Positions 14,901-53,582 of a stretch of DNA of 64,000 nucleotides are shown here, one piece after another. Under the pieces are notes generated by a model that was given only the letters and a program-made list of their open reading frames with translations, was not told where the DNA came from and did not search any database. Each line of letters opens with the position of its first letter. Position 1 is the first letter of the stretch. The position numbers and the translations under genes were made by a program. The stretch is from NCBI GenBank assembly GCA_022562795.1, contig JADFOP010000005.1, forward strand, positions 3,660 to 67,659. The letters run 5' to 3'. The DNA comes from Nitrospinota bacterium. GTDB taxonomy: Bacteria > JADFOP01.

Positions 14901-16463
14901 TTACGGTGTTCCTCTCGGATCTTCCACCTCCCCGGTGGGCTTGCGCTGCCAGTAGATTACCTTGTTCACAGCGTTGAGATAGGCCTTGGCGCTCGCCTTG
15001 ATAATATCTGTCGAGTGGCCGATTCCCGTCGTCGCCTCCCCGTCGTAGAAGGATACCTTGACGACCACTTCGCCCTGCGCATCCTTGCCGCTCGTTACGG
15101 CCCTGATGGAATAAGAGAGCAACCGTCCGGGTATCTCTGTAATGCGATCGATAGCTTGGTACGTCGCATCGACCGGCCCTTCACCGATAGCGGCATCTAG
15201 GAAAACATCCTCGCCCCGGGAGAGCCGAATCGTGGAAGTCGGCACCGTATCGGTCCCGCTGCTGGAATGGAGGTAGACGAGCTTAAAGGTCTCCGGCACC
15301 GGCAATGTATGGTCACGCATAAGCGCCATCAGGTCTTCGTCAAAGACCTCCTTTTTCTTGTCAGCCAGGCGTTTGAAGGCTACGAAGGCGTCGTTCAGCG
15401 CCCCGTCGTCCAATTGAAAGCCCAGCTCCTCCAAGCGCTTGCGAAGGGCGTGGCGCCCCGAATGCTTCCCAAGCACCAGATCGCTCTTTAATTTCCCGAT
15501 CGATTGGGGTGTCATAATCTCGTAGGTGGTGGCATCCATAATGACCCCGTGCTGGTGGATGCCCGCCTCGTGGGCGAAGGCGTTCTTGCCCACAATCGCC
15601 TTGTTGGGCTGGACGGGAATCCCCGTGATCGAAGTGAGCATCTGGCTCGTGCGGTATATTTCGTCGAATTTGATGTTGGTGTAGTGGTGGAGGAAGTCCC
15701 GCCGAACCTGTAAGGCCATGACGAACTCCTCCAAGGAGGCGTTGCCCGCCCGCTCGCCGATTCCGTTGATGGTGCACTCGACCTGTCGGGCTCCGTTTTG
15801 AATCGCCGACAGAGAGTTGGCTACGGCCAGGCCCAGATCATCGTGGCAGTGGACGGAAAGGACGGCTTGTTCAATATTAGACACACGCTCGCGGATCGTG
15901 GCAATACGGGCCCCAAATTCATCCGGCGTAGCATAGCCCACGGTGTCGGGTATGTTAACCGTCGTGGCTCCAGCGTCGATGACCGCGGTGAGCACTTCAC
16001 AGAGGAAATCCATGTCCGTCCGCGCAGCATCCTCCGGGCTGAACTCCACATCGTCGGTATACTGACGGGCGTGGCGAACCCCGGCCACGGCCGCCTCAAC
16101 AACCTCCTTAGGGGTCATCTTCAGCTTATGTTCCATGTGAATCGGGCTAGTGGCAATGAACGTGTGGATGCGCCCCTGGCGGGCATGCTGGAGAGCTTCC
16201 CAGGCACGATCGATGTCCTTCAAGACCACCCGCGAGAGTCCAGCAATAGTAACCCCGGGGGCATCGACAGTCTGGGCGACGGCCTTGACCGCCTCGAAAT
16301 CTCCTTCCGAGGCGATGGGAAATCCCGCTTCGATGACATCCACCTGGAGCCGTGCAAGCCGGTCGGCCATCTGGACCTTTTCGTCAAGGTTCATACTGAA
16401 GCCGGGCGACTGCTCGCCGTCGCGCAACGTGGTGTCGAAAATTTTAATGCGTTCACCCTTCAT
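14901..16463 (-). CDS. leuA: 2-isopropylmalate synthase
   Basis: [42 protein letters not shown]-terminal regulatory domain. Start moved to ATG 16463 (MKGERIKIF) after a purine-rich SD-like stretch. Confidence 0.97.
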
Positions 16464-16518
16464 AGTCCTTGTCCTCTCTCGTCCCCCGGCCTGAGAGCCG
16501 ACCGGGAAAAGGTTGATG

Positions 16519-16547
16519 ATTCTACCAAACCCACTTCGACAACGCAA
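16519..16547 (-). promoter_or_regulatory. Candidate sigma70 promoter downstream of the T-box terminator
   Basis: TTGCGT-N17-TAGAAT with an extended -10 TG, between the T-box terminator and leuA. Confidence 0.45.
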
Positions 16548-16614: not shown

Positions 16615-16875
16615 CAATAAGAAAAGCCCTCGTCCCGAGGGACGAGAGCAAAGCTCCCGTGGTACCACCCTCTTTTAGCACCCGCGCCTAGCAAGGCGGA
16701 AGCGCCCTTCTTTTAGCCCTTGACGCAGGCATCACGGCGCGAGCTAGACCCTGGCTTAGGACTTCACCCGCGCGGCTCGAGAGGCGAGTTCAGCATGTCC
16801 GAGGACCGGCTCCCAGCAACCACCGGCTCTCTGAGCCTCGGAGTTCCGCCTACTATTCCTCCGTCAACGCCTTTC
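16615..16875 (-). promoter_or_regulatory. Leucine T-box riboswitch upstream of leuA
   Basis: Minus strand: stem I with AGAGAGCCGGTGGTTGCTGGGAGCCGGT, specifier GAA-CTC (Leu codon CUC at 16788-16786), T-box GAGGGTGGTACCACGGGAG pairing with CTCTCGTCCCTC, then a terminator hairpin and U tract. Confidence 0.92.
16619..16649 (-). terminator. T-box intrinsic terminator
   Basis: GCTCTCGTCC-CTCG-GGACGAGGGC followed by TTTTCTT on the minus strand. Confidence 0.85.
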
Positions 16876-16901
16876 CTATTTAGGAATTTAATAGGCCGCA
16901 A

Positions 16902-47067: not shown

Positions 47068-47182
47068 CGAAGCTCTCCCCGCTAAAACCCAAAAAGCCAA
47101 CAGGCCCACAAAGCCCTCAATATACGCTCCATTGGCGGTAGGGGCAAGGGCCAGGGTGGACAGCCCTTGTAGATGTCCGGCT

Positions 47183-47208
47183 TCCGCCTCAGGCGAACCT
47201 CAGGCGGA
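47183..47208. repeat. Palindromic CCGCCTCAGG repeat
   Basis: TCCGCCTCAGGCGAACCTCAGGCGGA; its reverse complement matches 21613-21635 at all but one position. Confidence 0.6.
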
Positions 47209-47366
47209 CAGCACCCCGACACCACCTGCTGAGGCGTGGACCTTATGTAGGGACAGGGCTTGTCCCTGTCCGTGGGCTGGGAGGGCAAATTGTGTGTACG
47301 GACGGGATGGGGTTCATCCTTTTCGTGGGGGGGTCATTCCTGTTCGCGGACAGCCTTACCGGCCCC

Positions 47367-47693
47367 TCACCCCTCCTCCTCCCAGGCGGCGAGGCCCCCT
47401 TCGAGGACCGAGACTTTGGAAAACCCCTTTTCTCGGATATTGGCCGCCGAACCGGCGGCCGAGCCTTCGCCCGGTCACGTTCAGTAAAAGACGACGCCCT
47501 GCTCGGGGCCCAACACCGAATAGCGTTGGTCGAGCTCCGCCTTAGGGATCGAGATGGCCCCCGGCAGGCGGTGCTCATTGAAGGACTCAACCTTCCGGAC
47601 GTCCACGACGACCAGGTCGGCTGCATCTTGCATGAGCGCCCTAAGCTCCTGGGCGGTAATCCGCGGAACCTGTCCTGCTGTCTCTCCCGTCAC
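47367..47693 (-). CDS. Rhodanese-like probable selenoprotein with a UxU active site (108 aa)
   Basis: Strong SD AAAGGAGGTG and GTG start. VVDVR...LPGA..IP, then VVFY-TGA-ACG-TGA-PGEGSAA...GFSKVSVLEGGLAAWEEEG*. The domain is complete only if both TGAs (47483-47481, 47477-47475) are read through. Confidence 0.85.
47442..47460 (-). promoter_or_regulatory. Candidate bacterial SECIS hairpin
   Basis: GGCCGCC-GGTTC-GGCGGCC; the G-starting loop lies 27 nt and 21 nt downstream of the two UGA codons. Confidence 0.6.
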
Positions 47694-47766
47694 TCGGAAT
47701 CACCTCCTTTCGAAACCGTCACTTTCTTAGGATAAAGACCTACAGAGATATTTCAGGCAGACCCAT

Positions 47767-48855
47767 CTACAGGCCCTGGAAAGCAATAATAACCACGCCT
47801 GTCACCAGGACGTTGATCAGGCCCAAAGGAAGCATGTACTTCCAGCCGAGCCGCATCAGCTGATCGTAGCGGAAGCGGGGGAGCGTCCAGCGGATGGTCA
47901 TAAGCAGCCAGCAGAAGAAGACCACCTTGAAGACGAAGGAGCCCACCTGGAGCAGGACGACGAGCAGGTGGGGCAGGCCGAAAAAGAAGCCGCCGGGGAT
48001 GTGAAAGCCGTCGGCCAAGAGGAATGGGACCTGCCAGCCTCCGAAGAAGAGGCTCGTCACTATGCCCGCCACCATCGTAGTCTCGATGAAATCGGCGAAC
48101 ATGAACATGCCCCACTTCATTCCGCTGTACTCGGTGAAGTAGCCGATGATCTCGCTTTCGCTCTCTGGCAGGTCGAAGGGGATGCGTTTGCTCTCGGCCA
48201 CGGAGGCGGTCAGAAAGAGGAGGAAGGCGACGGGCTGGACCACGACCCCCCACTTCGGGATGAAGCCGAACAGGAGCTCGCCCTGGGCGCGGTTGATCTC
48301 GCTAAGCTGGAGGGTATTGAAGACCATTAGTATCCCGATTATGGCAAGCCCGAGCGTAATCTCGTAGGAGATAAGCTGGGCCGAGGCCCGAAGGCCCCCC
48401 ATCAGGGAAAATTTATTGTTTGAAGACCAGCCGGCGAGCACAACCCCGTAGATGCCCATCCCGCCGACGGCGAAGAAATAGAGGATGCCCACGTTGAAAT
48501 CGACGACCTGGAGCGGGATTGCGCGGCTCCCAATGTGGAGGACGTCGCCGAAGGGGATGATGGCGAAGGCCACGAGCGGCGGGAAGAAGGCGATGAAGGG
48601 GGCCAGGGTGTGAAGAAATCGGTTGCCCCCAGGCGGTACGAAGTCCTCCTTGGTCATCATCTTGAGCCCGTCGGCGATGGGGTGGAAGAGGCCGATGAGG
48701 CGGAATCCGAAGATATCGGCCCTGTTGGCCCCGATGCGGTCTTGAATGACGGCGCTCTGCTTGCGCTCCACCCACGTCAACAGCCCCGCCACGTTCATGA
48801 CGAAGCCGATGACAAGCAATACCTTCACCAAGTCAATGGCGGCGTCGATTATCAT
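47767..48855 (-). CDS. nuoH: NADH-quinone oxidoreductase subunit H
   Basis: ERKQSAVIQDRIG, DGLKMMTKED, SAQLISYE, PFDLPESESE, LPRFRYDQLM. Confidence 0.97.
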   Translation of the reverse strand: MIIDAAIDLVKVLLVIGFVMNVAGLLTWVERKQSAVIQDRIGANRADIFGFRLIGLFHPIADGLKMMTKEDFVPPGGNRFLHTLAPFIAFFPPLVAFAIIPFGDVLHIGSRAIPLQVVDFNVGILYFFAVGGMGIYGVVLAGWSSNNKFSLMGGLRASAQLISYEITLGLAIIGILMVFNTLQLSEINRAQGELLFGFIPKWGVVVQPVAFLLFLTASVAESKRIPFDLPESESEIIGYFTEYSGMKWGMFMFADFIETTMVAGIVTSLFFGGWQVPFLLADGFHIPGGFFFGLPHLLVVLLQVGSFVFKVVFFCWLLMTIRWTLPRFRYDQLMRLGWKYMLPLGLINVLVTGVVIIAFQGL

Positions 48856-50483
48856 TCTGCAGCATCCGCCACGGCCACGCCCGTGAGCTCGCCGCTATGC
48901 CCAAGGGTGTCGTAGGAGAGCCCGGCGTAGGGGCCGACGGCCTGGGCGATGGCGTCAAAGACCTCCCGGACGTTTTTATACGGGCACTCGACGCCAATGG
49001 CCTGGGCCAGGCCCGCCCAGATATCCCACTCAGGAAGGGCCTCGCCGAGGGGCTCCATGGCTTTCATAAATCGCTGCACGCGACCTTCGAAATTGGTGAA
49101 GGTCCCTTCCCTCTCCACGTAGACCGCCGCCGGAAGAACCACGCTTGCCAGCCGCTGCGTGCTCGTAGGGAGCCATCCGACGAAGATGAGGGTCTCCAGG
49201 CCCTCGAGGGCCTCGGCCTGGTCGCCCTCGGGGAAGAGATGGCTAAGGTCGTGGTGGCAGACGACGAGCGCCTTTATCGAGCCCTTGCGGCAGCCGGCCA
49301 AAATGCCCTTGAGACCTCGCCTGCCTTTGCCCGGCGTGAGGCCCAGGTCGGCGCAGCCGCGGGTATTGGGGTTCTTGTCGGCCTTGATGAGAATATCGTC
49401 CTCGTAGCCCTCCTCGGCCGGAGACACCCGATAGTCGATGTTTGGCACGCCCAGGCCCTCGCGGAAGAGGCTTTCCAAGACGAAGAGGTCTTCGTTAGCG
49501 CTCTGGGCCGAAGGGATGACGGCGATCGATTCGGGCCCGTGGGCCTCAATTGTCCCCCGGAGGGCCTCGGCAGCCTCCCGGATGGCCTCCGTCCAGGATA
49601 CCTGGCGGAAACCCGCGCCGTCGCGGACCAGAGGAAAGAGCAAGCGGTCGGGGTCGTCCACGAACGGGTAGGCGCCGTGGCGGCCGAAGTCGCACATCCA
49701 GTGACCGTTGACCTCGGCGTTGTAGCGCGGCAAGAGCCGATAGACCCGCTTGTGCTCGAAACGAAAGCGGCGCATGGTATGGTGGACATCGATGTTGCAG
49801 CCGCGGGAGCACCCGGGACATACGCTCTCGGTCTGCTCCAGATACCAGACCCGGACCTGGAAGCGGAAGTCCTTGTCGGTGAAGGCGCCTACGGGGCAGA
49901 TGTCCACGAGGTTGCCCGTGTAGTGGTTCTTCAGGGGCTGGCCCATGAAAGTGGTGATGGTCTTGCGGGAGCCCCGGTCGATGAAGCCCATCTCCTGGTC
50001 ACCGACGACCTCGTCACCGAAGCGCACGCAGCGGGTGCAGAGGATACAGCGTTCTTGGTCGAGAACGAGCGTTCCGATATCAATGACCTTTCCCTTGACC
50101 CATTTCTTATCTTGCATCCGGCTGGAGTACAGACCGTGCTCCATATAGTAGTCCTGGAGCCCGCACTCGCCGGCCTTATCGCAGATGGGGCAATCGAGAG
50201 GGTGGTTGATGAGGAGATACTCCAGGACGTCGGCCCTGGCCTTCTCAACCTCCTCCGACGCCGTACGGACAACCATCCCGTCGGTGACGGGTGCCGCGCA
50301 CGCAATGACGAGCTTGGGGCTCTTTTCCACCTCGACGAGGCACATGCGGCAAGTGCCGTCAATGGAAAGGCCGGGATGATAGCAGTAGTGGGGGATGGAT
50401 ATGCCCGCCTCCTCGGCGGCATCTATGATGCTCTTCCCCTCGTCGACGTCAATGGTTATGCCGTCAATTTCAACTTTGGGCAT
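48852..50483 (-). CDS. nuoG: NADH-quinone oxidoreductase subunit G (short form)
   Basis: CYHPGL..GTCRMCLVE, NHPLDCPICDKAGECGLQ, CILCTRC, DICPVGA, CPGCSRGC...MCD clusters; EREGTFTNFEGRVQ. Confidence 0.9.
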   Translation of the reverse strand: MPKVEIDGITIDVDEGKSIIDAAEEAGISIPHYCYHPGLSIDGTCRMCLVEVEKSPKLVIACAAPVTDGMVVRTASEEVEKARADVLEYLLINHPLDCPICDKAGECGLQDYYMEHGLYSSRMQDKKWVKGKVIDIGTLVLDQERCILCTRCVRFGDEVVGDQEMGFIDRGSRKTITTFMGQPLKNHYTGNLVDICPVGAFTDKDFRFQVRVWYLEQTESVCPGCSRGCNIDVHHTMRRFRFEHKRVYRLLPRYNAEVNGHWMCDFGRHGAYPFVDDPDRLLFPLVRDGAGFRQVSWTEAIREAAEALRGTIEAHGPESIAVIPSAQSANEDLFVLESLFREGLGVPNIDYRVSPAEEGYEDDILIKADKNPNTRGCADLGLTPGKGRRGLKGILAGCRKGSIKALVVCHHDLSHLFPEGDQAEALEGLETLIFVGWLPTSTQRLASVVLPAAVYVEREGTFTNFEGRVQRFMKAMEPLGEALPEWDIWAGLAQAIGVECPYKNVREVFDAIAQAVGPYAGLSYDTLGHSGELTGVAVADAAE

Positions 50484-50509
50484 CGCGTTGTTCCTCAGAG
50501 GACCGACCG

Positions 50510-51910
50510 CTAGCGGTCCAGCTCCCCCCCGATCATGTTGATGGAGCCGAAGGTCGGGACGAGGTCCGCCAGCATGTCACCGATTAACATCTTGTCCAAT
50601 GCGGTCATCAGGGCGAAACACGGCCCTCGGCACCGAACCCGGTACGGTCGTCCTGAGCCGTCGCTCACAATGTAGAAGCCGAGCTCCCCGTTGGCCCCCT
50701 CAACGGCCTGGTAGGCCTCGCCCTTGGGGGGCTTGACGCCGTGGCCGAACATAACCAGCATGAAGTGGTTCATGAGGGACTCGATGTTTTCGTAGACCTC
50801 CTCCTTGGGCGGTAGAAATGCCCTGCGGTCGTCGGCGGCCACAACGTCGTGGTATATCCTCTCGCTCCCTTCAAGGGTGGGATCGAGGTCGACCTTGACA
50901 TCGTAAAGGTCCTTGAAAGACTCCTTTTGCTTGGCCAACTCGAGCATATACTCCGTATCTATGGGTTCCCCCGTAAGGTCGGCGAAAATGGGGCCGGGTG
51001 GCATTTGTTCTAAGCATTGCTCGATGATGCGGCAGCTCTGCTCTATCTCCTCCATTCTGAGGAGGTATCGGTCGAAGTTGTCTCCGTTCGTCCCCAGCGG
51101 GACGATGAAGTCCATCCGGTCGTAGACGAGGTAGGGGTTGGCTTTGCGCACATCGTAGTTGACACCGGTAGAGCGAAGAAACGGGCCGGTAAAGGCGTGG
51201 GCGATGGCAACCTCATCAGAGATGACCCCAACATCGCGCATCCTATCGATGAAGATTCGGTTCCTGGTGAGCAGGCCGTGGCACTCATCGACAATTTTGC
51301 GGACCCTCTCTAAGGCCTCCCGGCAGCGGCCCTCAAAGCCTTCGGGCAGGTCGGCCTTCACCCCGCCCACCCGTCCGTAGCTGACGGTCAGGCGGGCCCC
51401 TGTGACCTCTTCGACCAGGTCGTAGAGAAACTCCCGCGCCTCGATGAGGTAGAGGAATACCGTAAAGGCCCCGAGTTCCATCGCCGATGCGCCAATACAG
51501 GTCACGTGATCGGTGATTCTCGATATCTCGGACATCAGGGTGCGGATGTACTGGCACCGCTCGGGGGTGGTGATCCCATACAGTTTCTCAACTGTCATGG
51601 CATAGCCGACGTTGTTGATTATGGGCGATACGTAGTTGAGCCGATCGGTGTACGGGATGGCTTGATTGTAGCCCCCTATCTCGCAGCTTTTCTCGAAGGC
51701 CCTGTGGAGGTAGCCGATTTCCACATCGGCGTCCAAGATCGTCTCGCCCTCCAGGTGGACGAGGATGCGAACGATCCCGTGCATGGCTGGATGAGCCGGC
51801 CCCATGTTCAAGAACATTTCCTGGAACCGAAGTCCGCCCTCATCGCCCTCCTCATCGACATGGGACGGGATGCCCTCTAGCTCTTCTGTTGTCTTGGGCT
51901 CTTCAGCCAT
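50510..51910 (-). CDS. nuoD: NADH-quinone oxidoreductase subunit D
   Basis: NMGPAHPAMHG, GYLHRAFEK, YTDRLNY, EGANGELG, GELDR C-terminus. Confidence 0.97.
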   Translation of the reverse strand: MAEEPKTTEELEGIPSHVDEEGDEGGLRFQEMFLNMGPAHPAMHGIVRILVHLEGETILDADVEIGYLHRAFEKSCEIGGYNQAIPYTDRLNYVSPIINNVGYAMTVEKLYGITTPERCQYIRTLMSEISRITDHVTCIGASAMELGAFTVFLYLIEAREFLYDLVEEVTGARLTVSYGRVGGVKADLPEGFEGRCREALERVRKIVDECHGLLTRNRIFIDRMRDVGVISDEVAIAHAFTGPFLRSTGVNYDVRKANPYLVYDRMDFIVPLGTNGDNFDRYLLRMEEIEQSCRIIEQCLEQMPPGPIFADLTGEPIDTEYMLELAKQKESFKDLYDVKVDLDPTLEGSERIYHDVVAADDRRAFLPPKEEVYENIESLMNHFMLVMFGHGVKPPKGEAYQAVEGANGELGFYIVSDGSGRPYRVRCRGPCFALMTALDKMLIGDMLADLVPTFGSINMIGGELDR

Positions 51911-51934
51911 CCTGCTCAATCCTCACCCGGCGCC

Positions 51935-52435
51935 TCAGTTCTTCGGCCCCACGAGGGGCTGGCGACGGGAGATAGCGTAGTCCTTCCTCAACGGGTAGCC
52001 CTCGAATTCCTCATACATGAGGATGCGGCGCAGGTCGGGGTGACCCTCAAAAACGACCCCAAACATATCCCACGCCTCCCGCTCCAGCCAGTCGGCGACC
52101 GGCCAAAGCTCCACGACGCTGGCGATTGTGGGGTCGTCCTCCGCCACCGGGCACTTAATTCGGACCCGGTGGTTGTGCTCGAGCGAGTAGAGATGGTAGA
52201 CGACCTCGAAGCGGGCCATGCCCTCCCGCCCGGGGTATTGGAGGTAGTCCACGCACGTTAGGTCCATTAGGAAGTTGTAGGCGAGCTTCGGCTCTTCCTT
52301 ACAGAACCGCAGGAGGTCTCGGTTGGCCTCTGGCTCAACTACAACGGTGTCGTCGCCGTGAGGGGTGTGGGCCTCAAGGATGACGGAACTAAATTGCTTT
52401 TGAAGTAATTGCAGCGTGATGCTGGGCTTGCTCAT
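51935..52435 (-). CDS. nuoC: NADH-quinone oxidoreductase subunit C
   Basis: DLTCVDY, RFEVVYHLYS, EREAWDMFG, GYPLRKDY. Confidence 0.96.
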   Translation of the reverse strand: MSKPSITLQLLQKQFSSVILEAHTPHGDDTVVVEPEANRDLLRFCKEEPKLAYNFLMDLTCVDYLQYPGREGMARFEVVYHLYSLEHNHRVRIKCPVAEDDPTIASVVELWPVADWLEREAWDMFGVVFEGHPDLRRILMYEEFEGYPLRKDYAISRRQPLVGPKN

Positions 52436-52443
52436 GGGCCTCG

Positions 52444-52938
52444 CTACGCCCTGACCTGCCCCGGCAAGAATTCCTGCTTCTCGCCCTGAATCTTATCCTG
52501 GAGCATCATTAGGCCGTGGAGAACCGTCTCTGGCCGCGGCGGGCAACCCGGGATGTAGAGGTCAACGGGGATGATCGTGTCGATGCCCTGCACGGTGGCG
52601 TAGTTGTCGTAGAATCCGCCGGAAACGGTGCACACTCCGAAGGCGACAACCCACTTGGGCTCACACATCTGCTCGTAGATTTTTACCAGGACAGGAGCGA
52701 TCTTGTGGCTGATGGTGCCAACTACGAAAAGCACATCCGCCTGGCGTGGGCTGAACCGCGGCAAGCCGGCCCCGAACCTGTCGATGTCGTAGTGGGAGCA
52801 TGCGGTCGACATATATTCCATCCCACAGCAGGCCGTCACAAAGGGGTACTGAAAGATGGAATACTTGCGAGCCCAGCCGAGCACCTTATCAAGTCGAGAC
52901 AGGAGAACGCCGCCCTCTAAAGCTTTTTCTAATCCCAT
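52444..52938 (-). CDS. nuoB: NADH-quinone oxidoreductase subunit B
   Basis: TACCGME, SPRQAD, FGVCT, YIPGCPPRPE; start moved to ATG 52938, overlapping the nuoA stop. Confidence 0.96.
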   Translation of the reverse strand: MGLEKALEGGVLLSRLDKVLGWARKYSIFQYPFVTACCGMEYMSTACSHYDIDRFGAGLPRFSPRQADVLFVVGTISHKIAPVLVKIYEQMCEPKWVVAFGVCTVSGGFYDNYATVQGIDTIIPVDLYIPGCPPRPETVLHGLMMLQDKIQGEKQEFLPGQVRA

Positions 52939-53282
52939 TCCAACGCTCCTCGTTTCCACACGTAGACCAGGGCCGCCCCCAGGATGAAGATGAAGAATGT
53001 CATCTCCACAAGGCCGAACACCCCAAGGTCGCGAAAGATTACCGCCCATGGGTACATGAACACCACCTCTACATCGAAGATGATGAAGAGCATGGCAACC
53101 AAGTAAAACTTGACGCTGAAACGCGGGCGTTGGGGACCTATGGGAGAGGAGCCGCACTCGAAGGGCTCCTCCTTAACGCGGGTGAGGCGCTTGGGCCCCA
53201 TGAACTCGCCCATGGCGAGCATCGCGCCGGCAAGACCCCCAGCGAGAAGAATCATAAGGAACAAAGGAAAGGCTTCAGCCAC
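52929..53282 (-). CDS. nuoA: NADH-quinone oxidoreductase subunit A
   Basis: PFECG, FYLVAMLFIIFDVE, GALEWD; start GTG 53282. Confidence 0.96.
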   Translation of the reverse strand: MAEAFPLFLMILLAGGLAGAMLAMGEFMGPKRLTRVKEEPFECGSSPIGPQRPRFSVKFYLVAMLFIIFDVEVVFMYPWAVIFRDLGVFGLVEMTFFIFILGAALVYVWKRGALEWD

Positions 53283-53582
53283 GTCACTCTCCACTGAGGA
53301 TGATAGCTTGCAGGGCGAACCTCGGACCCAACAGAGCGAGCCCAAACAACCCTCTTGTACCCGATTCCCAATCCAATGGCAAGACCTAACCAGCGTCTAC
53401 ATGTCACTCACGAACCTGGAGCAACGTCAGGGAAAAGGCTTCCCATTGATAAATATTTCACGTGCAAAATACTGATTATGCGCTCCAAGGATACCCCTTG
53501 ATAACCCTTCCTAAGTATGGGAAACCATAGGTCTTTTTTCAAGCCCTACCAAGTCGAGTGGCGATCGACCTCACGCCGAGAC

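What the first reader, a model, noticed from the sequence alone, without database searches (positions are those of the whole stretch)
47367..47693. Probable double-selenocysteine (UxU) rhodanese directly downstream of nuoH
Seen: the ORF track stops at ...VVFY*, but the minus strand continues TAC TGA ACG TGA CCG GGC GAA GGC TCG, then AANIREKGFSKVSVLEGGLAAWEEEG* (true stop probably 47369-47367). A 7-bp hairpin with a G-starting loop (47460-47442) sits 27 and 21 nt after the two UGAs, and the gene has a strong SD. Established: Cys homologues have Y-C-x-C-P-x-E in the active loop and end in L-x-GG-x-x-x-W; bacterial SECIS hairpins lie just 3' of the Sec UGA. Inference: both TGAs encode Sec, possibly served by one SECIS. 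Two independent nonsense mutations landing exactly on both Cys positions is unlikely. It follows nuoH by about 70 nt, so it may be co-transcribed with complex I and act in S/Se transfer or redox chemistry linked to Fe-S clusters (speculative). Standard pipelines would call it a truncated 70-aa protein. Rhodanese selenoproteins are known in general; I cannot say whether this UxU family in this context is described.
Basis: partly seen in the sequence, partly recalled or inferred. Interest (0 to 1): 0.85.

Follow-up and report, generated by a model that had tools for sequence, protein, structure and literature searches.

The report
Double-selenocysteine rhodanese gene, miscalled truncated
A small rhodanese gene after nuoH in a Nitrospinota genome almost certainly reads two in-frame TGA codons as selenocysteine using one conserved RNA hairpin; databases truncate it to 70 aa, but this U-x-U type was first noted in 2007.

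Summary
On the minus strand, 47693-47367 encodes a 108-codon rhodanese with in-frame TGAs at codons 71 and 73 (VVFY-U-T-U-PGEGS), followed by an 8-bp hairpin at 47460-47442. Ten distinct related sequences from separate assemblies (about 45-99% protein identity) keep both TGAs, the same downstream frame, the same C-terminal rhodanese motifs and the hairpin. The closest full-length homologues have FYCTCPNE, so both TGAs fall on conserved cysteines. The hairpin is shared with C-x-U relatives at a fixed distance from the second TGA. It covaries at wobble positions (C:G 14, U:A 7, none broken) and meets the published bacterial SECIS model for both TGAs. TGA is otherwise a normal stop in this window. 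The gene is therefore very probably a real double-Sec selenoprotein. Three cautions apply. A U-x-U rhodanese was already reported in 2007, and the C-x-U sister family is curated as NCBIfam NF041203, which this protein does not reach (73 vs 115 bits). The nuoH adjacency holds only in close relatives, so a complex I link is unsupported. No sel genes or tRNA-Sec lie in the window, so the Sec machinery is untested. Function is unknown, and a redox or sulfur/selenium-transfer role is inferred.

The parts
47367..47693 (-). Full read-through coding sequence of the U-x-U rhodanese (108 codons plus stop; GTG start 47693-47691, true stop TGA 47369-47367)
   Evidence: Pfam PF00581 over residues 13-106, E = 7.5e-17; same length and frame in L001-L006, L026, L028; dN/dS 0.23-0.63 downstream of the TGAs
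47703..47708 (-). Shine-Dalgarno AGGAGG, 9 nt before the GTG start
   Evidence: Read directly
47481..47483 (-). First in-frame TGA (codon 71, Sec-1). It aligns with the first Cys of the C-x-C loop, the canonical post-strand catalytic position
   Evidence: homologues FYCTCPNE; invariant TGA in all U-x-U loci; strand L60-Y63 then C64 in the model of homologue P0045
47475..47477 (-). Second in-frame TGA (codon 73, Sec-2). It aligns with the second Cys of C-x-C and with the Sec of C-x-U relatives, and is the predicted N-cap of the following helix
   Evidence: (TGA invariant in 21/21 aligned sequences)
47442..47460 (-). Bacterial SECIS-type hairpin GGCCGCCG-GUU-CGGCGGCC. The conserved core is 6 bp (47459-47454 paired with 47448-47443) and the second loop position is an invariant G (47452)
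   Evidence: searches (fold; 85.7% paired vs 22-52% when slid; wobble pair C:G 14 / U:A 7 / 0 broken; 0 of 500 shuffles; RNAalifold finds the same core; absent from distant C-x-C genes), criteria from PMC13188914
47459..47474 (-). Spacer CCGGGCGAAGGCUCGG between UGA2 and the SECIS. Synonymous sites are invariant across the clade and it can form a small GAAG-loop hairpin. Role unknown
   Evidence: notebook entry 4
47767..48855 (-). nuoH, upstream neighbour on the same strand with a 73-nt gap. This is context only, not a conserved partner
   Evidence: PF00146; no promoter-like or terminator-like site in the gap; adjacency lost in L026, L028, L032, L033

Best explanation
This is an intact gene for a small, probably cytoplasmic, single-domain rhodanese-fold selenoprotein with two selenocysteines two residues apart (Y-U-T-U-P-G-E). 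Shown: both UGAs replace the two cysteines of a conserved C-x-C-P-x-E loop; the frame after them is conserved and selected as protein; and a conserved, covarying stem-loop with a G-U loop lies 21-22 nt after UGA2 and 27-28 nt after UGA1. Inferred: SelB with Sec-tRNA(Sec) binds this single hairpin and recodes first UGA1 and then, 6 nt later, UGA2. C-x-U relatives have the same hairpin in the same register relative to UGA2, so the element most likely evolved for UGA2, and UGA1 arose later by a Cys-to-Sec change (C-x-C, then C-x-U, then U-x-U). Inferred from a confident model of a C-x-C homologue: Sec-1 sits right after the central beta-strand, where rhodaneses carry their persulfide-forming Cys, and Sec-2 caps the N-terminus of the next helix. 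The two selenols would then form a compact redox pair (diselenide or selenenyl intermediates) for sulfur/selenium transfer or reduction, rather than a canonical thiosulfate-binding cradle. The substrate is unknown.
For: Sequence and read-through. Pfam Rhodanese E = 7.5e-17. All close homologues are called as 67-72 aa proteins ending at FY. Eleven distinct sequences including the window keep TGA-NNN-TGA, the open frame and the stop position. Cys homologues have FYCTCPNEASAA, and Y70, C71, C73 and G100 are invariant across 50 aligned sequences. Downstream dN is 0.15-0.35, at or below upstream dN, and dN/dS is below 1. Hairpin covariation and register controls. Third-position invariance is 9/20 around the UGAs and hairpin vs 11/66 and 2/19 elsewhere. 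Distant C-x-C genes lack the stem. bSECIS criteria (3-9 nt loop, 4-16 bp stem, G in the first two loop positions, 16-37 nt from UGA) are met for both UGAs (PMC13188914). TGA ends 18 of 54 long ORFs tallied in the window, so there is no code reassignment. MAGs labelled Nitrospinota (GTDB UBA8248) are among the most selenoprotein-rich bacteria, with 48-54 genes (PMC13326102). Precedent for U-x-U in this protein type (PMC1976440). Model of C-x-C homologue P0045: pLDDT 94.3, strand 60-63, C64-T65-C66, helix from P67. Rhodanese fold, TM 0.77-0.79 to Alr3790, BH2092 and GlpE.
Against: No selA, selB, selD or tRNA-Sec in the 64-kb window or in any fetched locus, so Sec decoding in this organism is inferred, not shown. 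There is no protein-level evidence. In E. coli the SECIS upper stem sits 11 nt from the UGA (PMC8659212), and one hairpin serving two UGAs 6 nt apart has not been demonstrated experimentally to my knowledge. L001-L003 carry a C-U mismatch in the lower stem. The structural inference rests on a 41%-identical Cys homologue, because the window protein itself could not be submitted. No conserved gene neighbourhood points to a function.
Confidence: 0.85

Rival explanations
1. Only the second UGA is decoded as Sec through the SECIS, as in the C-x-U family. The first UGA mostly terminates, or is read through by another route, so the gene yields mainly a 70-aa fragment and little full-length protein, perhaps as selenium-dependent attenuation.
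For: The hairpin register is set relative to UGA2 and is shared with C-x-U relatives. UGA1 lies 6 nt further away than the family's usual spacing. E. coli SECIS spacing is described as fixed at 11 nt (PMC8659212).
Against: UGA1 is invariant in every U-x-U locus from about 45 to 99% identity and is never TGY, although one base change would give Cys. The downstream protein sequence is as conserved as the upstream part, which requires frequent passage of UGA1. UGA1 is still within the 16-37 nt range of the bSECIS model. A 70-aa rhodanese fragment lacks the active site and half the fold.
Confidence: 0.08
2. The gene is a decaying pseudogene of a C-x-C rhodanese, or a genuine 70-aa protein, and the downstream frame is not translated.
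For: All databases call a 70-aa product. No Sec machinery was seen in the window.
Against: Two nonsense codons fall exactly on both Cys positions and are conserved in 11 distinct sequences. There are no frameshifts or further stops across 35 codons in any of them. dN/dS is below 1 downstream. The G90, L97, G99, G100 and W104 motifs are kept. Wobble positions in the hairpin covary.
Confidence: 0.02
3. UGA is not a stop in this organism (a code with UGA = Trp or Gly), or the TGAs are assembly or sequencing errors.
For: Some database relatives show W at the second position (P0023, P0043, P0063).
Against: TGA terminates 18 of 54 long ORFs tallied in the window, including this gene's own conserved stop. 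The same TGAs appear in assemblies from four sources. The W residues are more simply explained by gene callers using table 4. Cys, not Trp or Gly, is the conserved residue in homologues.
Confidence: 0.02

Closest known systems
U-x-U form of 'rhodanese-related sulfurtransferase' from the Olavius algarvensis delta-symbiont metagenome (Zhang & Gladyshev 2007, PMC1976440)
   Same: A rhodanese-type selenoprotein in which a second Sec has evolved two residues from the first, giving U-x-U. It is predicted computationally and its function is unknown.
   Different: That report is from Deltaproteobacteria symbionts, whereas this one is a Nitrospinota clade. The 2007 text does not discuss how one SECIS serves both codons. 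The exported U-S-U gene in L032, which scores at the NF041203 threshold, may be closer to that form than the window gene is.
NCBIfam NF041203 'rhodanese_LYCAU', rhodanese-related (seleno)protein (review 'form 3', motif C-x-U, 1 Sec)
   Same: It is the best-scoring curated family for the window protein. It has the same loop architecture Y-C/U-x-U-P-x-E and Sec at the second position. C-x-U relatives carry the same hairpin in the same register.
   Different: The window protein scores 73.1 bits against a cutoff of 115, so it is not a member. It has Sec rather than Cys at the first position, giving 2 Sec. It has no signal peptide, whereas the model's N-terminal region and several near-members are exported.
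C-x-C rhodanese-like proteins (FYCTCPNEASAA type; e.g. P0024-P0062, P0045)
   Same: These are the closest full-length homologues (about 40-45% identity). They have the same Y-C-x-C-P-x-E loop, the same length from loop to C-terminal GG-x-x-W, and the same predicted fold.
   Different: They have Cys at both positions and no SECIS hairpin. Many have N-terminal membrane or signal segments. They are also uncharacterised.
E. coli fdhF-type bacterial SECIS and the bSECISearch consensus
   Same: A stem-loop inside the coding region just 3' of the UGA, with a small apical loop carrying G then U, and a 6-8 bp GC-rich upper stem. All four consensus criteria are met.
   Different: The loop G lies 26 nt (UGA2) and 32 nt (UGA1) from the U of the UGA, compared with G23 in E. 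coli. There is no bulged U. One element apparently serves two UGA codons.
TsoB (NF045694), rhodanese/DsbD-fusion selenoprotein with U-x-x-x-x-U
   Same: It is another rhodanese-domain protein listed with two Sec residues.
   Different: It is a 572-position fusion model, and the window protein scores only 16 bits against a cutoff of 805. The Sec spacing and architecture differ.

Membership tests
Rhodanese-like domain (Pfam PF00581) | Match to the family HMM above the gathering score | tested here: met
   62.1 bits vs 22.2, residues 13-106 against model positions 1-101 of 102, with Cys substituted at both TGAs
Rhodanese-like domain (Pfam PF00581) | Alpha/beta rhodanese fold | tested here: met
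   Tested on the 41%-identical C-x-C homologue P0045, not on the window protein: pLDDT 94.3; Foldseek TM 0.77-0.79 to Alr3790, BH2092 and GlpE
Rhodanese-like domain (Pfam PF00581) | Catalytic Cys directly after the central strand, heading a six-residue C-X5 cradle loop | tested here: inconclusive
   Sec-1 occupies the post-strand position. However, the model shows only three non-regular residues (C-T-C) before the helix starts at Pro, and the loop has Glu rather than Arg/Lys. So the position is kept but the canonical cradle is not.
Bacterial selenoprotein gene (Cys/Sec-pair plus SECIS criteria used in the field) | In-frame UGA aligned with a conserved Cys in homologues | tested here: met
   Both UGAs align with C71 and C73, which are invariant in 50 aligned sequences
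Bacterial selenoprotein gene (Cys/Sec-pair plus SECIS criteria used in the field) | Homology continues past the UGA, and UGA-containing homologues exist in other organisms | tested here: met
   Ten further distinct U-x-U sequences and 12 C-x-U sequences; downstream dN/dS 0.23-0.63
Bacterial selenoprotein gene (Cys/Sec-pair plus SECIS criteria used in the field) | selA, selB, selC and selD present in the same genome | not testable with these tools
The only lineage-level support is BSepDB listing Nitrospinota-labelled MAGs with 48-54 selenoprotein genes.
Bacterial selenoprotein gene (Cys/Sec-pair plus SECIS criteria used in the field) | Selenium incorporated in the protein | not testable with these tools
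   Needs 75Se labelling or mass spectrometry
bSECIS consensus (Zhang & Gladyshev model as given in PMC13188914) | Apical loop of 3-9 nt on an upper stem of 4-16 bp | tested here: met
   Loop of 3-5 nt; stem of 8 bp in the window with a 6-bp conserved core
bSECIS consensus (Zhang & Gladyshev model as given in PMC13188914) | G in the first two loop positions, usually followed by G or U | tested here: met
   Column 38 is an invariant G in 21 of 21 sequences, followed by U in 18 and G in 3. The window loop is G-GUU-C with the outer G and C paired.
bSECIS consensus (Zhang & Gladyshev model as given in PMC13188914) | [quoted passage not shown] | tested here: met
   21-22 nt for UGA2 and 27-28 nt for UGA1, counted
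bSECIS consensus (Zhang & Gladyshev model as given in PMC13188914) | Base pairing maintained by compensatory change | tested here: met
   Five of 8 pairs show double changes. Pair 33-45 is C:G 14, U:A 7, 0 broken. The observed score is reached by 0 of 500 shuffles. Pairing falls to 22-52% when the register is slid. Caveat: the sequences are related, so the number of independent events is smaller than the number of cells.
NCBIfam NF041203 rhodanese_LYCAU (C-x-U) | Score at or above the curated cutoff of 115 bits | tested here: not met
   73.1 bits for the window and 70-74 bits for clade members. L032 reaches 114.2.
NCBIfam NF041203 rhodanese_LYCAU (C-x-U) | Motif Y-C-x-U with Cys at the first position and a single Sec | tested here: not met
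   The window has Y-U-T-U: Sec at both positions
TsoB NF045694 (U-x-x-x-x-U rhodanese/DsbD fusion) | Score at or above the cutoff of 805 bits, and the fusion architecture | tested here: not met
   16.4 bits; the window protein is a 108-aa single domain
U-x-U rhodanese-related sulfurtransferase (Zhang & Gladyshev 2007) | Rhodanese domain with two Sec in a U-x-U motif | tested here: met
U-x-U rhodanese-related sulfurtransferase (Zhang & Gladyshev 2007) | Sequence-level orthology to the published Olavius symbiont genes | not testable with these tools
   The figure and sequences are not held, and no supplementary text is available

The most novel reading that the evidence does not exclude
A single bacterial SECIS hairpin at a fixed position naturally recodes two UGA codons only 6 nt apart. 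SelB-dependent decoding in this lineage would then tolerate two different UGA-to-SECIS spacings within one mRNA, and would reload within two elongation cycles. The product would carry a vicinal diselenide-capable U-x-U centre at a remodelled rhodanese active site. The invariant spacer and mini-hairpin between UGA2 and the SECIS may be part of what makes the double event work. This would give a compact natural template for studying, and borrowing, tandem Sec insertion in bacteria.
Probability: 0.55. Interest if true: 0.5.

Novelty: new member of a known kind. Interest (0 to 1): 0.38.

Why it matters
There are three practical points. First, annotation: every public record of this clade (for example MCH7646838.1, MCH7921522.1, MDV2496150.1) is a 70-aa fragment. 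The U-x-U form is also missing from the current review tables and from NCBIfam, so a model for it would correct many metagenome annotations. Second, mechanism: bacterial proteins with two Sec residues are rare, and here the two UGAs share one small, well-defined hairpin. That makes it a clean natural system for asking how strict SECIS spacing really is, and how fast SelB can be re-recruited. Third, chemistry: the C-x-C, C-x-U and U-x-U series within one fold is a natural experiment on what a second selenium adds to a redox or sulfur-transfer site. None of this overturns current understanding, and the suggested tie to complex I does not hold up.

Tried and rejected
(1) The genome contigs and metagenome-contig scans built their DNA patterns across the substituted Cys codons (VFYCTCPG). 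(2) The exhaustive representative search with the 70-aa N-terminal profile was swamped by multi-domain rhodaneses. Only P0122, P0127, P0223, P0244 and P0268 were informative. (4) I searched for Sec machinery with ARAGORN on the window and 22 loci and with Pfam on 40 window ORFs. Nothing was found. The window holds heme, shikimate, branched-chain amino acid, F0 ATP synthase and nuo genes. (5) A scan for other TGA-interrupted genes in the window gave only ordinary gene ends followed by GC-rich open frames. (6) A conserved gene neighbourhood as a clue to function was rejected, because the neighbours differ in every lineage. (7) Rfam at gathering thresholds returned no hit at the locus. (8) A literature search for C-x-C rhodanese biochemistry found nothing specific. 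(9) The small hairpin right after UGA2 was considered as a second SECIS for UGA1 and rejected. It starts 6 nt after UGA1, well inside the 16-nt minimum, and would lie within the ribosome.

Full report
OBSERVATION. On the minus strand, an ORF starts at GTG 47693-47691, preceded by AGGAGG (47708-47703) 9 nt upstream. It reads ...GPEQGVVFY, then TGA (47483-47481), ACG, TGA (47477-47475), and continues in frame as PGEGSAAGSAANIREKGFSKVSVLEGGLAAWEEEG to TGA 47369-47367. The mechanical ORF list ends the gene at 70 aa. With Cys at both stops, the 108-aa product matches Pfam Rhodanese end to end (residues 13-106, E = 7.5e-17). The hairpin GGCCGCCG-GUU-CGGCGGCC lies at 47460-47442. nuoH ends 73 nt upstream.

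IS IT REAL? All close database homologues are called as 67-72 aa proteins ending in ...VFY. They come from MAGs labelled Nitrospinota, Nitrospinae or 'bacterium'. I fetched the DNA behind eight of these clusters, from ENA, NCBI, JGI and Logan assemblies. Together with the exported form L032, this gave ten further distinct U-x-U sequences at about 45-99% protein identity. Every one has TGA-NNN-TGA at the same codons, an open frame for the next 34-36 codons, a stop at or within a codon or two of the same place (L032 is longer), and the rhodanese C-terminal motifs G-F/Y ... L-x-G-G-x-x-x-W. Downstream of the TGAs, dN (0.15-0.35) is no higher than upstream (0.27-0.53), and dN/dS is 0.23-0.63, so this part is translated. 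TGA ends 18 of the 54 long ORFs tallied in the window, including this gene itself, so UGA is an ordinary stop here. Pseudogene, assembly error and code reassignment are thereby excluded.

THE TWO POSITIONS. The nearest full-length relatives (about 40-45% identity) read FYCTCPNEASAA. In a 50-sequence alignment, Y70, C71, C73 and G100 are the only invariant columns. A third state exists. Many relatives are C-x-U (FYCA-TGA, FYCD-TGA, FYCT-TGA), which is the curated family NCBIfam NF041203 'rhodanese_LYCAU', listed as 'form 3' in the 2026 review.

THE SECIS. Nine U-x-U and twelve C-x-U sequences align without gaps from codon 71. A stem at columns 30-37 paired with 41-48 is 85.7% paired, against 22-52% when the 3' arm is slid by 1-3 nt, and none of 500 shuffles reaches the observed covariation score. 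The pair formed by two codon wobble positions (columns 33 and 45) is C:G in 14 sequences and U:A in 7, and is never broken. The apical pair switches between G:C, A:U and C:G while changing the encoded amino acids. RNAalifold independently returns the same 6-bp core. The second loop position is G in all 21 sequences, followed by U in 18 and G in 3. Third-codon positions are invariant at 9 of 20 codons around the UGAs and hairpin, against 11 of 66 and 2 of 19 elsewhere, and dS is depressed in the tail for most pairs. Distant C-x-C genes have no stem in this register, while one C-x-C gene nested within a C-x-U subfamily keeps a 5-bp relic. The published bSECIS model requires a 3-9 nt loop, a 4-16 bp stem, a G in the first two loop positions followed by G or U, and 16-37 nt from UGA to loop (PMC13188914). 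The element passes all of these for UGA2 (21-22 nt) and for UGA1 (27-28 nt). Compared with E. coli, where the stem-loop lies 11 nt from the UGA with G23/U24 in the loop (PMC8659212), the loop G here is at +26 from UGA2 and +32 from UGA1.

HOW IT PROBABLY WORKS. Shown: one conserved SECIS-type hairpin and two conserved UGAs, with the hairpin register fixed relative to UGA2 across both C-x-U and U-x-U genes. Inferred: the element evolved for UGA2, and the first Cys later became Sec (C-x-C, then C-x-U, then U-x-U). This matches the wording of Zhang & Gladyshev 2007, 'a second Sec evolved'. Also inferred: the same hairpin recruits SelB twice in quick succession. The hairpin starts 20 nt after UGA1 and 14 nt after UGA2, so it should still be folded outside the mRNA channel when either codon is in the A site. 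An AlphaFold model of the C-x-C homologue P0045 (pLDDT 94.3) places the first Cys directly after the central strand, which is the canonical rhodanese catalytic position. The second Cys is the N-cap of a long helix that begins at the conserved Pro. Only three residues are non-regular, compared with the usual six-residue cradle, and the loop carries a conserved Glu instead of basic residues. Foldseek confirms a single-domain rhodanese fold (TM 0.77-0.79 to Alr3790, BH2092 and GlpE), and no hit exceeds 28% sequence identity. I therefore favour a compact two-selenol redox or transfer centre (diselenide or selenenyl-sulfide chemistry) over a classical thiosulfate sulfurtransferase. This is inference only.

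CONTEXT. The nuoA-B-C-D-G-H, rhodanese, PHP order is kept only in relatives of 86% identity or more (L001-L004). More distant U-x-U genes have other neighbours: DUF192 and a response regulator (L026), a radical SAM gene and a BNR-repeat gene (L028), an HMA metal-binding protein (L032), and a MarR-family gene next to the C-x-U gene of L033. C-x-C homologues have yet other neighbours. There is no promoter-like or terminator-like site in the 73-nt gap, so co-transcription with nuoH is possible, but a functional tie to complex I has no comparative support. The window protein has no signal peptide, whereas several relatives are exported or are lipoproteins.

WHAT COULD NOT BE SHOWN. The window contains no selA, selB, selD or tRNA-Sec, and no second convincing selenoprotein gene. 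The fetched loci contain none either. The only support for Sec use in this lineage is external: BSepDB lists MAGs labelled Nitrospinota or Nitrospinae (GTDB UBA8248) with 48-54 selenoprotein genes (PMC13326102). Whether the window's organism belongs to that group is unknown.

COMPARISON AND NOVELTY. Rhodanese selenoproteins are well documented, with five 'forms' in the 2026 review. The C-x-U form is curated as NF041203. The window protein has that model as its best hit but scores 73 against a cutoff of 115, so it belongs to a sister clade rather than to the family. The exported U-S-U gene in L032 scores 114.2, so U-x-U occurs in at least two subfamilies. A U-x-U rhodanese-related sulfurtransferase was explicitly reported from Olavius symbionts in 2007 (PMC1976440), although the current review tables list the family with one Sec. 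The finding is therefore a new, consistently mis-annotated member, and clade, of a known kind. What this analysis adds is the comparative evidence that one hairpin in a fixed register underlies both Sec codons, together with an unexplained invariant spacer (CCGGGCGAAGGCUCGG, 47474-47459) between UGA2 and the SECIS.

VERDICT. The interpretation as a double-Sec rhodanese is supported, with confidence about 0.85 that both UGAs are decoded as Sec. The complex I link is not supported. The kind is already known, so interest is moderate (0.38).

Noticed in passing
window 47459-47474 (minus strand): The 16 nt between UGA2 and the SECIS stem (CCGGGCGAAGGCUCGG) are invariant at synonymous sites across the clade, and in the C-T-U relative L033 from the second codon after the UGA onward, even though dS is about 0.8 elsewhere. 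They can fold into a 4-6 bp hairpin with a GAAG loop that abuts the SECIS. L030 and L031 have a different sequence that also folds. This is too close to the UGAs to be a SECIS, and its role is unknown.
   Followed up: partly
window 16635-16876 (minus strand): T-box leader (Rfam RF00230, 95.8 bits, full length) just upstream of a leuA-type 2-isopropylmalate/homocitrate synthase gene (14901-16547), in a Nitrospinota-like genome.
   Followed up: no
window about 47767-53560 (minus strand): The nuo cluster here is only nuoA-B-C-D-G-H, with a short 543-aa NuoG-like subunit. There is no nuoE or nuoF, and nothing corresponding to nuoI-N follows nuoH. The same arrangement is seen in L001-L003.
   Followed up: no
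L032 260-1047: An exported (signal-peptide) U-S-U rhodanese sits directly downstream of a 75-aa HMA heavy-metal-associated protein. It scores 114.2 bits against the 115 cutoff of NF041203, so U-x-U also occurs at the edge of the curated C-x-U family. The neighbour hints at a metal or metalloid role.
   Followed up: partly
L016 590-1249 and L019 1236-2492: In these C-A-U rhodanese genes the frame continues past the rhodanese domain into a long C-terminal extension (418 aa in total in L019). Its repeated ILVPLDGS-type motifs resemble tandem universal-stress-protein domains. This was not checked against Pfam.
   Followed up: no
database proteins P0023, P0043, P0063: These full-length relatives show Trp (YCTW, YCAW) exactly where the family has the second Cys or Sec. 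The most likely cause is a TGA translated with genetic code table 4 by a metagenome gene caller. If so, they are hidden C-x-U selenoproteins.
   Followed up: no
window 47110-47366 vs L001 10328-11130 and L002 10328-11016: The intergenic stretch between the rhodanese stop and the PHP-domain gene is about 257 nt in the window but about 800 nt in L001 and about 690 nt in L002. The region therefore holds a variable insert of unknown nature. A sigma-70-like promoter match lies at window 47147-47119.
   Followed up: no
L014 3166-3230: A C-N-C (all-Cys) gene nested within a C-x-U subfamily keeps a 5-bp remnant of the SECIS stem in the same register, consistent with a recent Sec-to-Cys reversion.
   Followed up: partly
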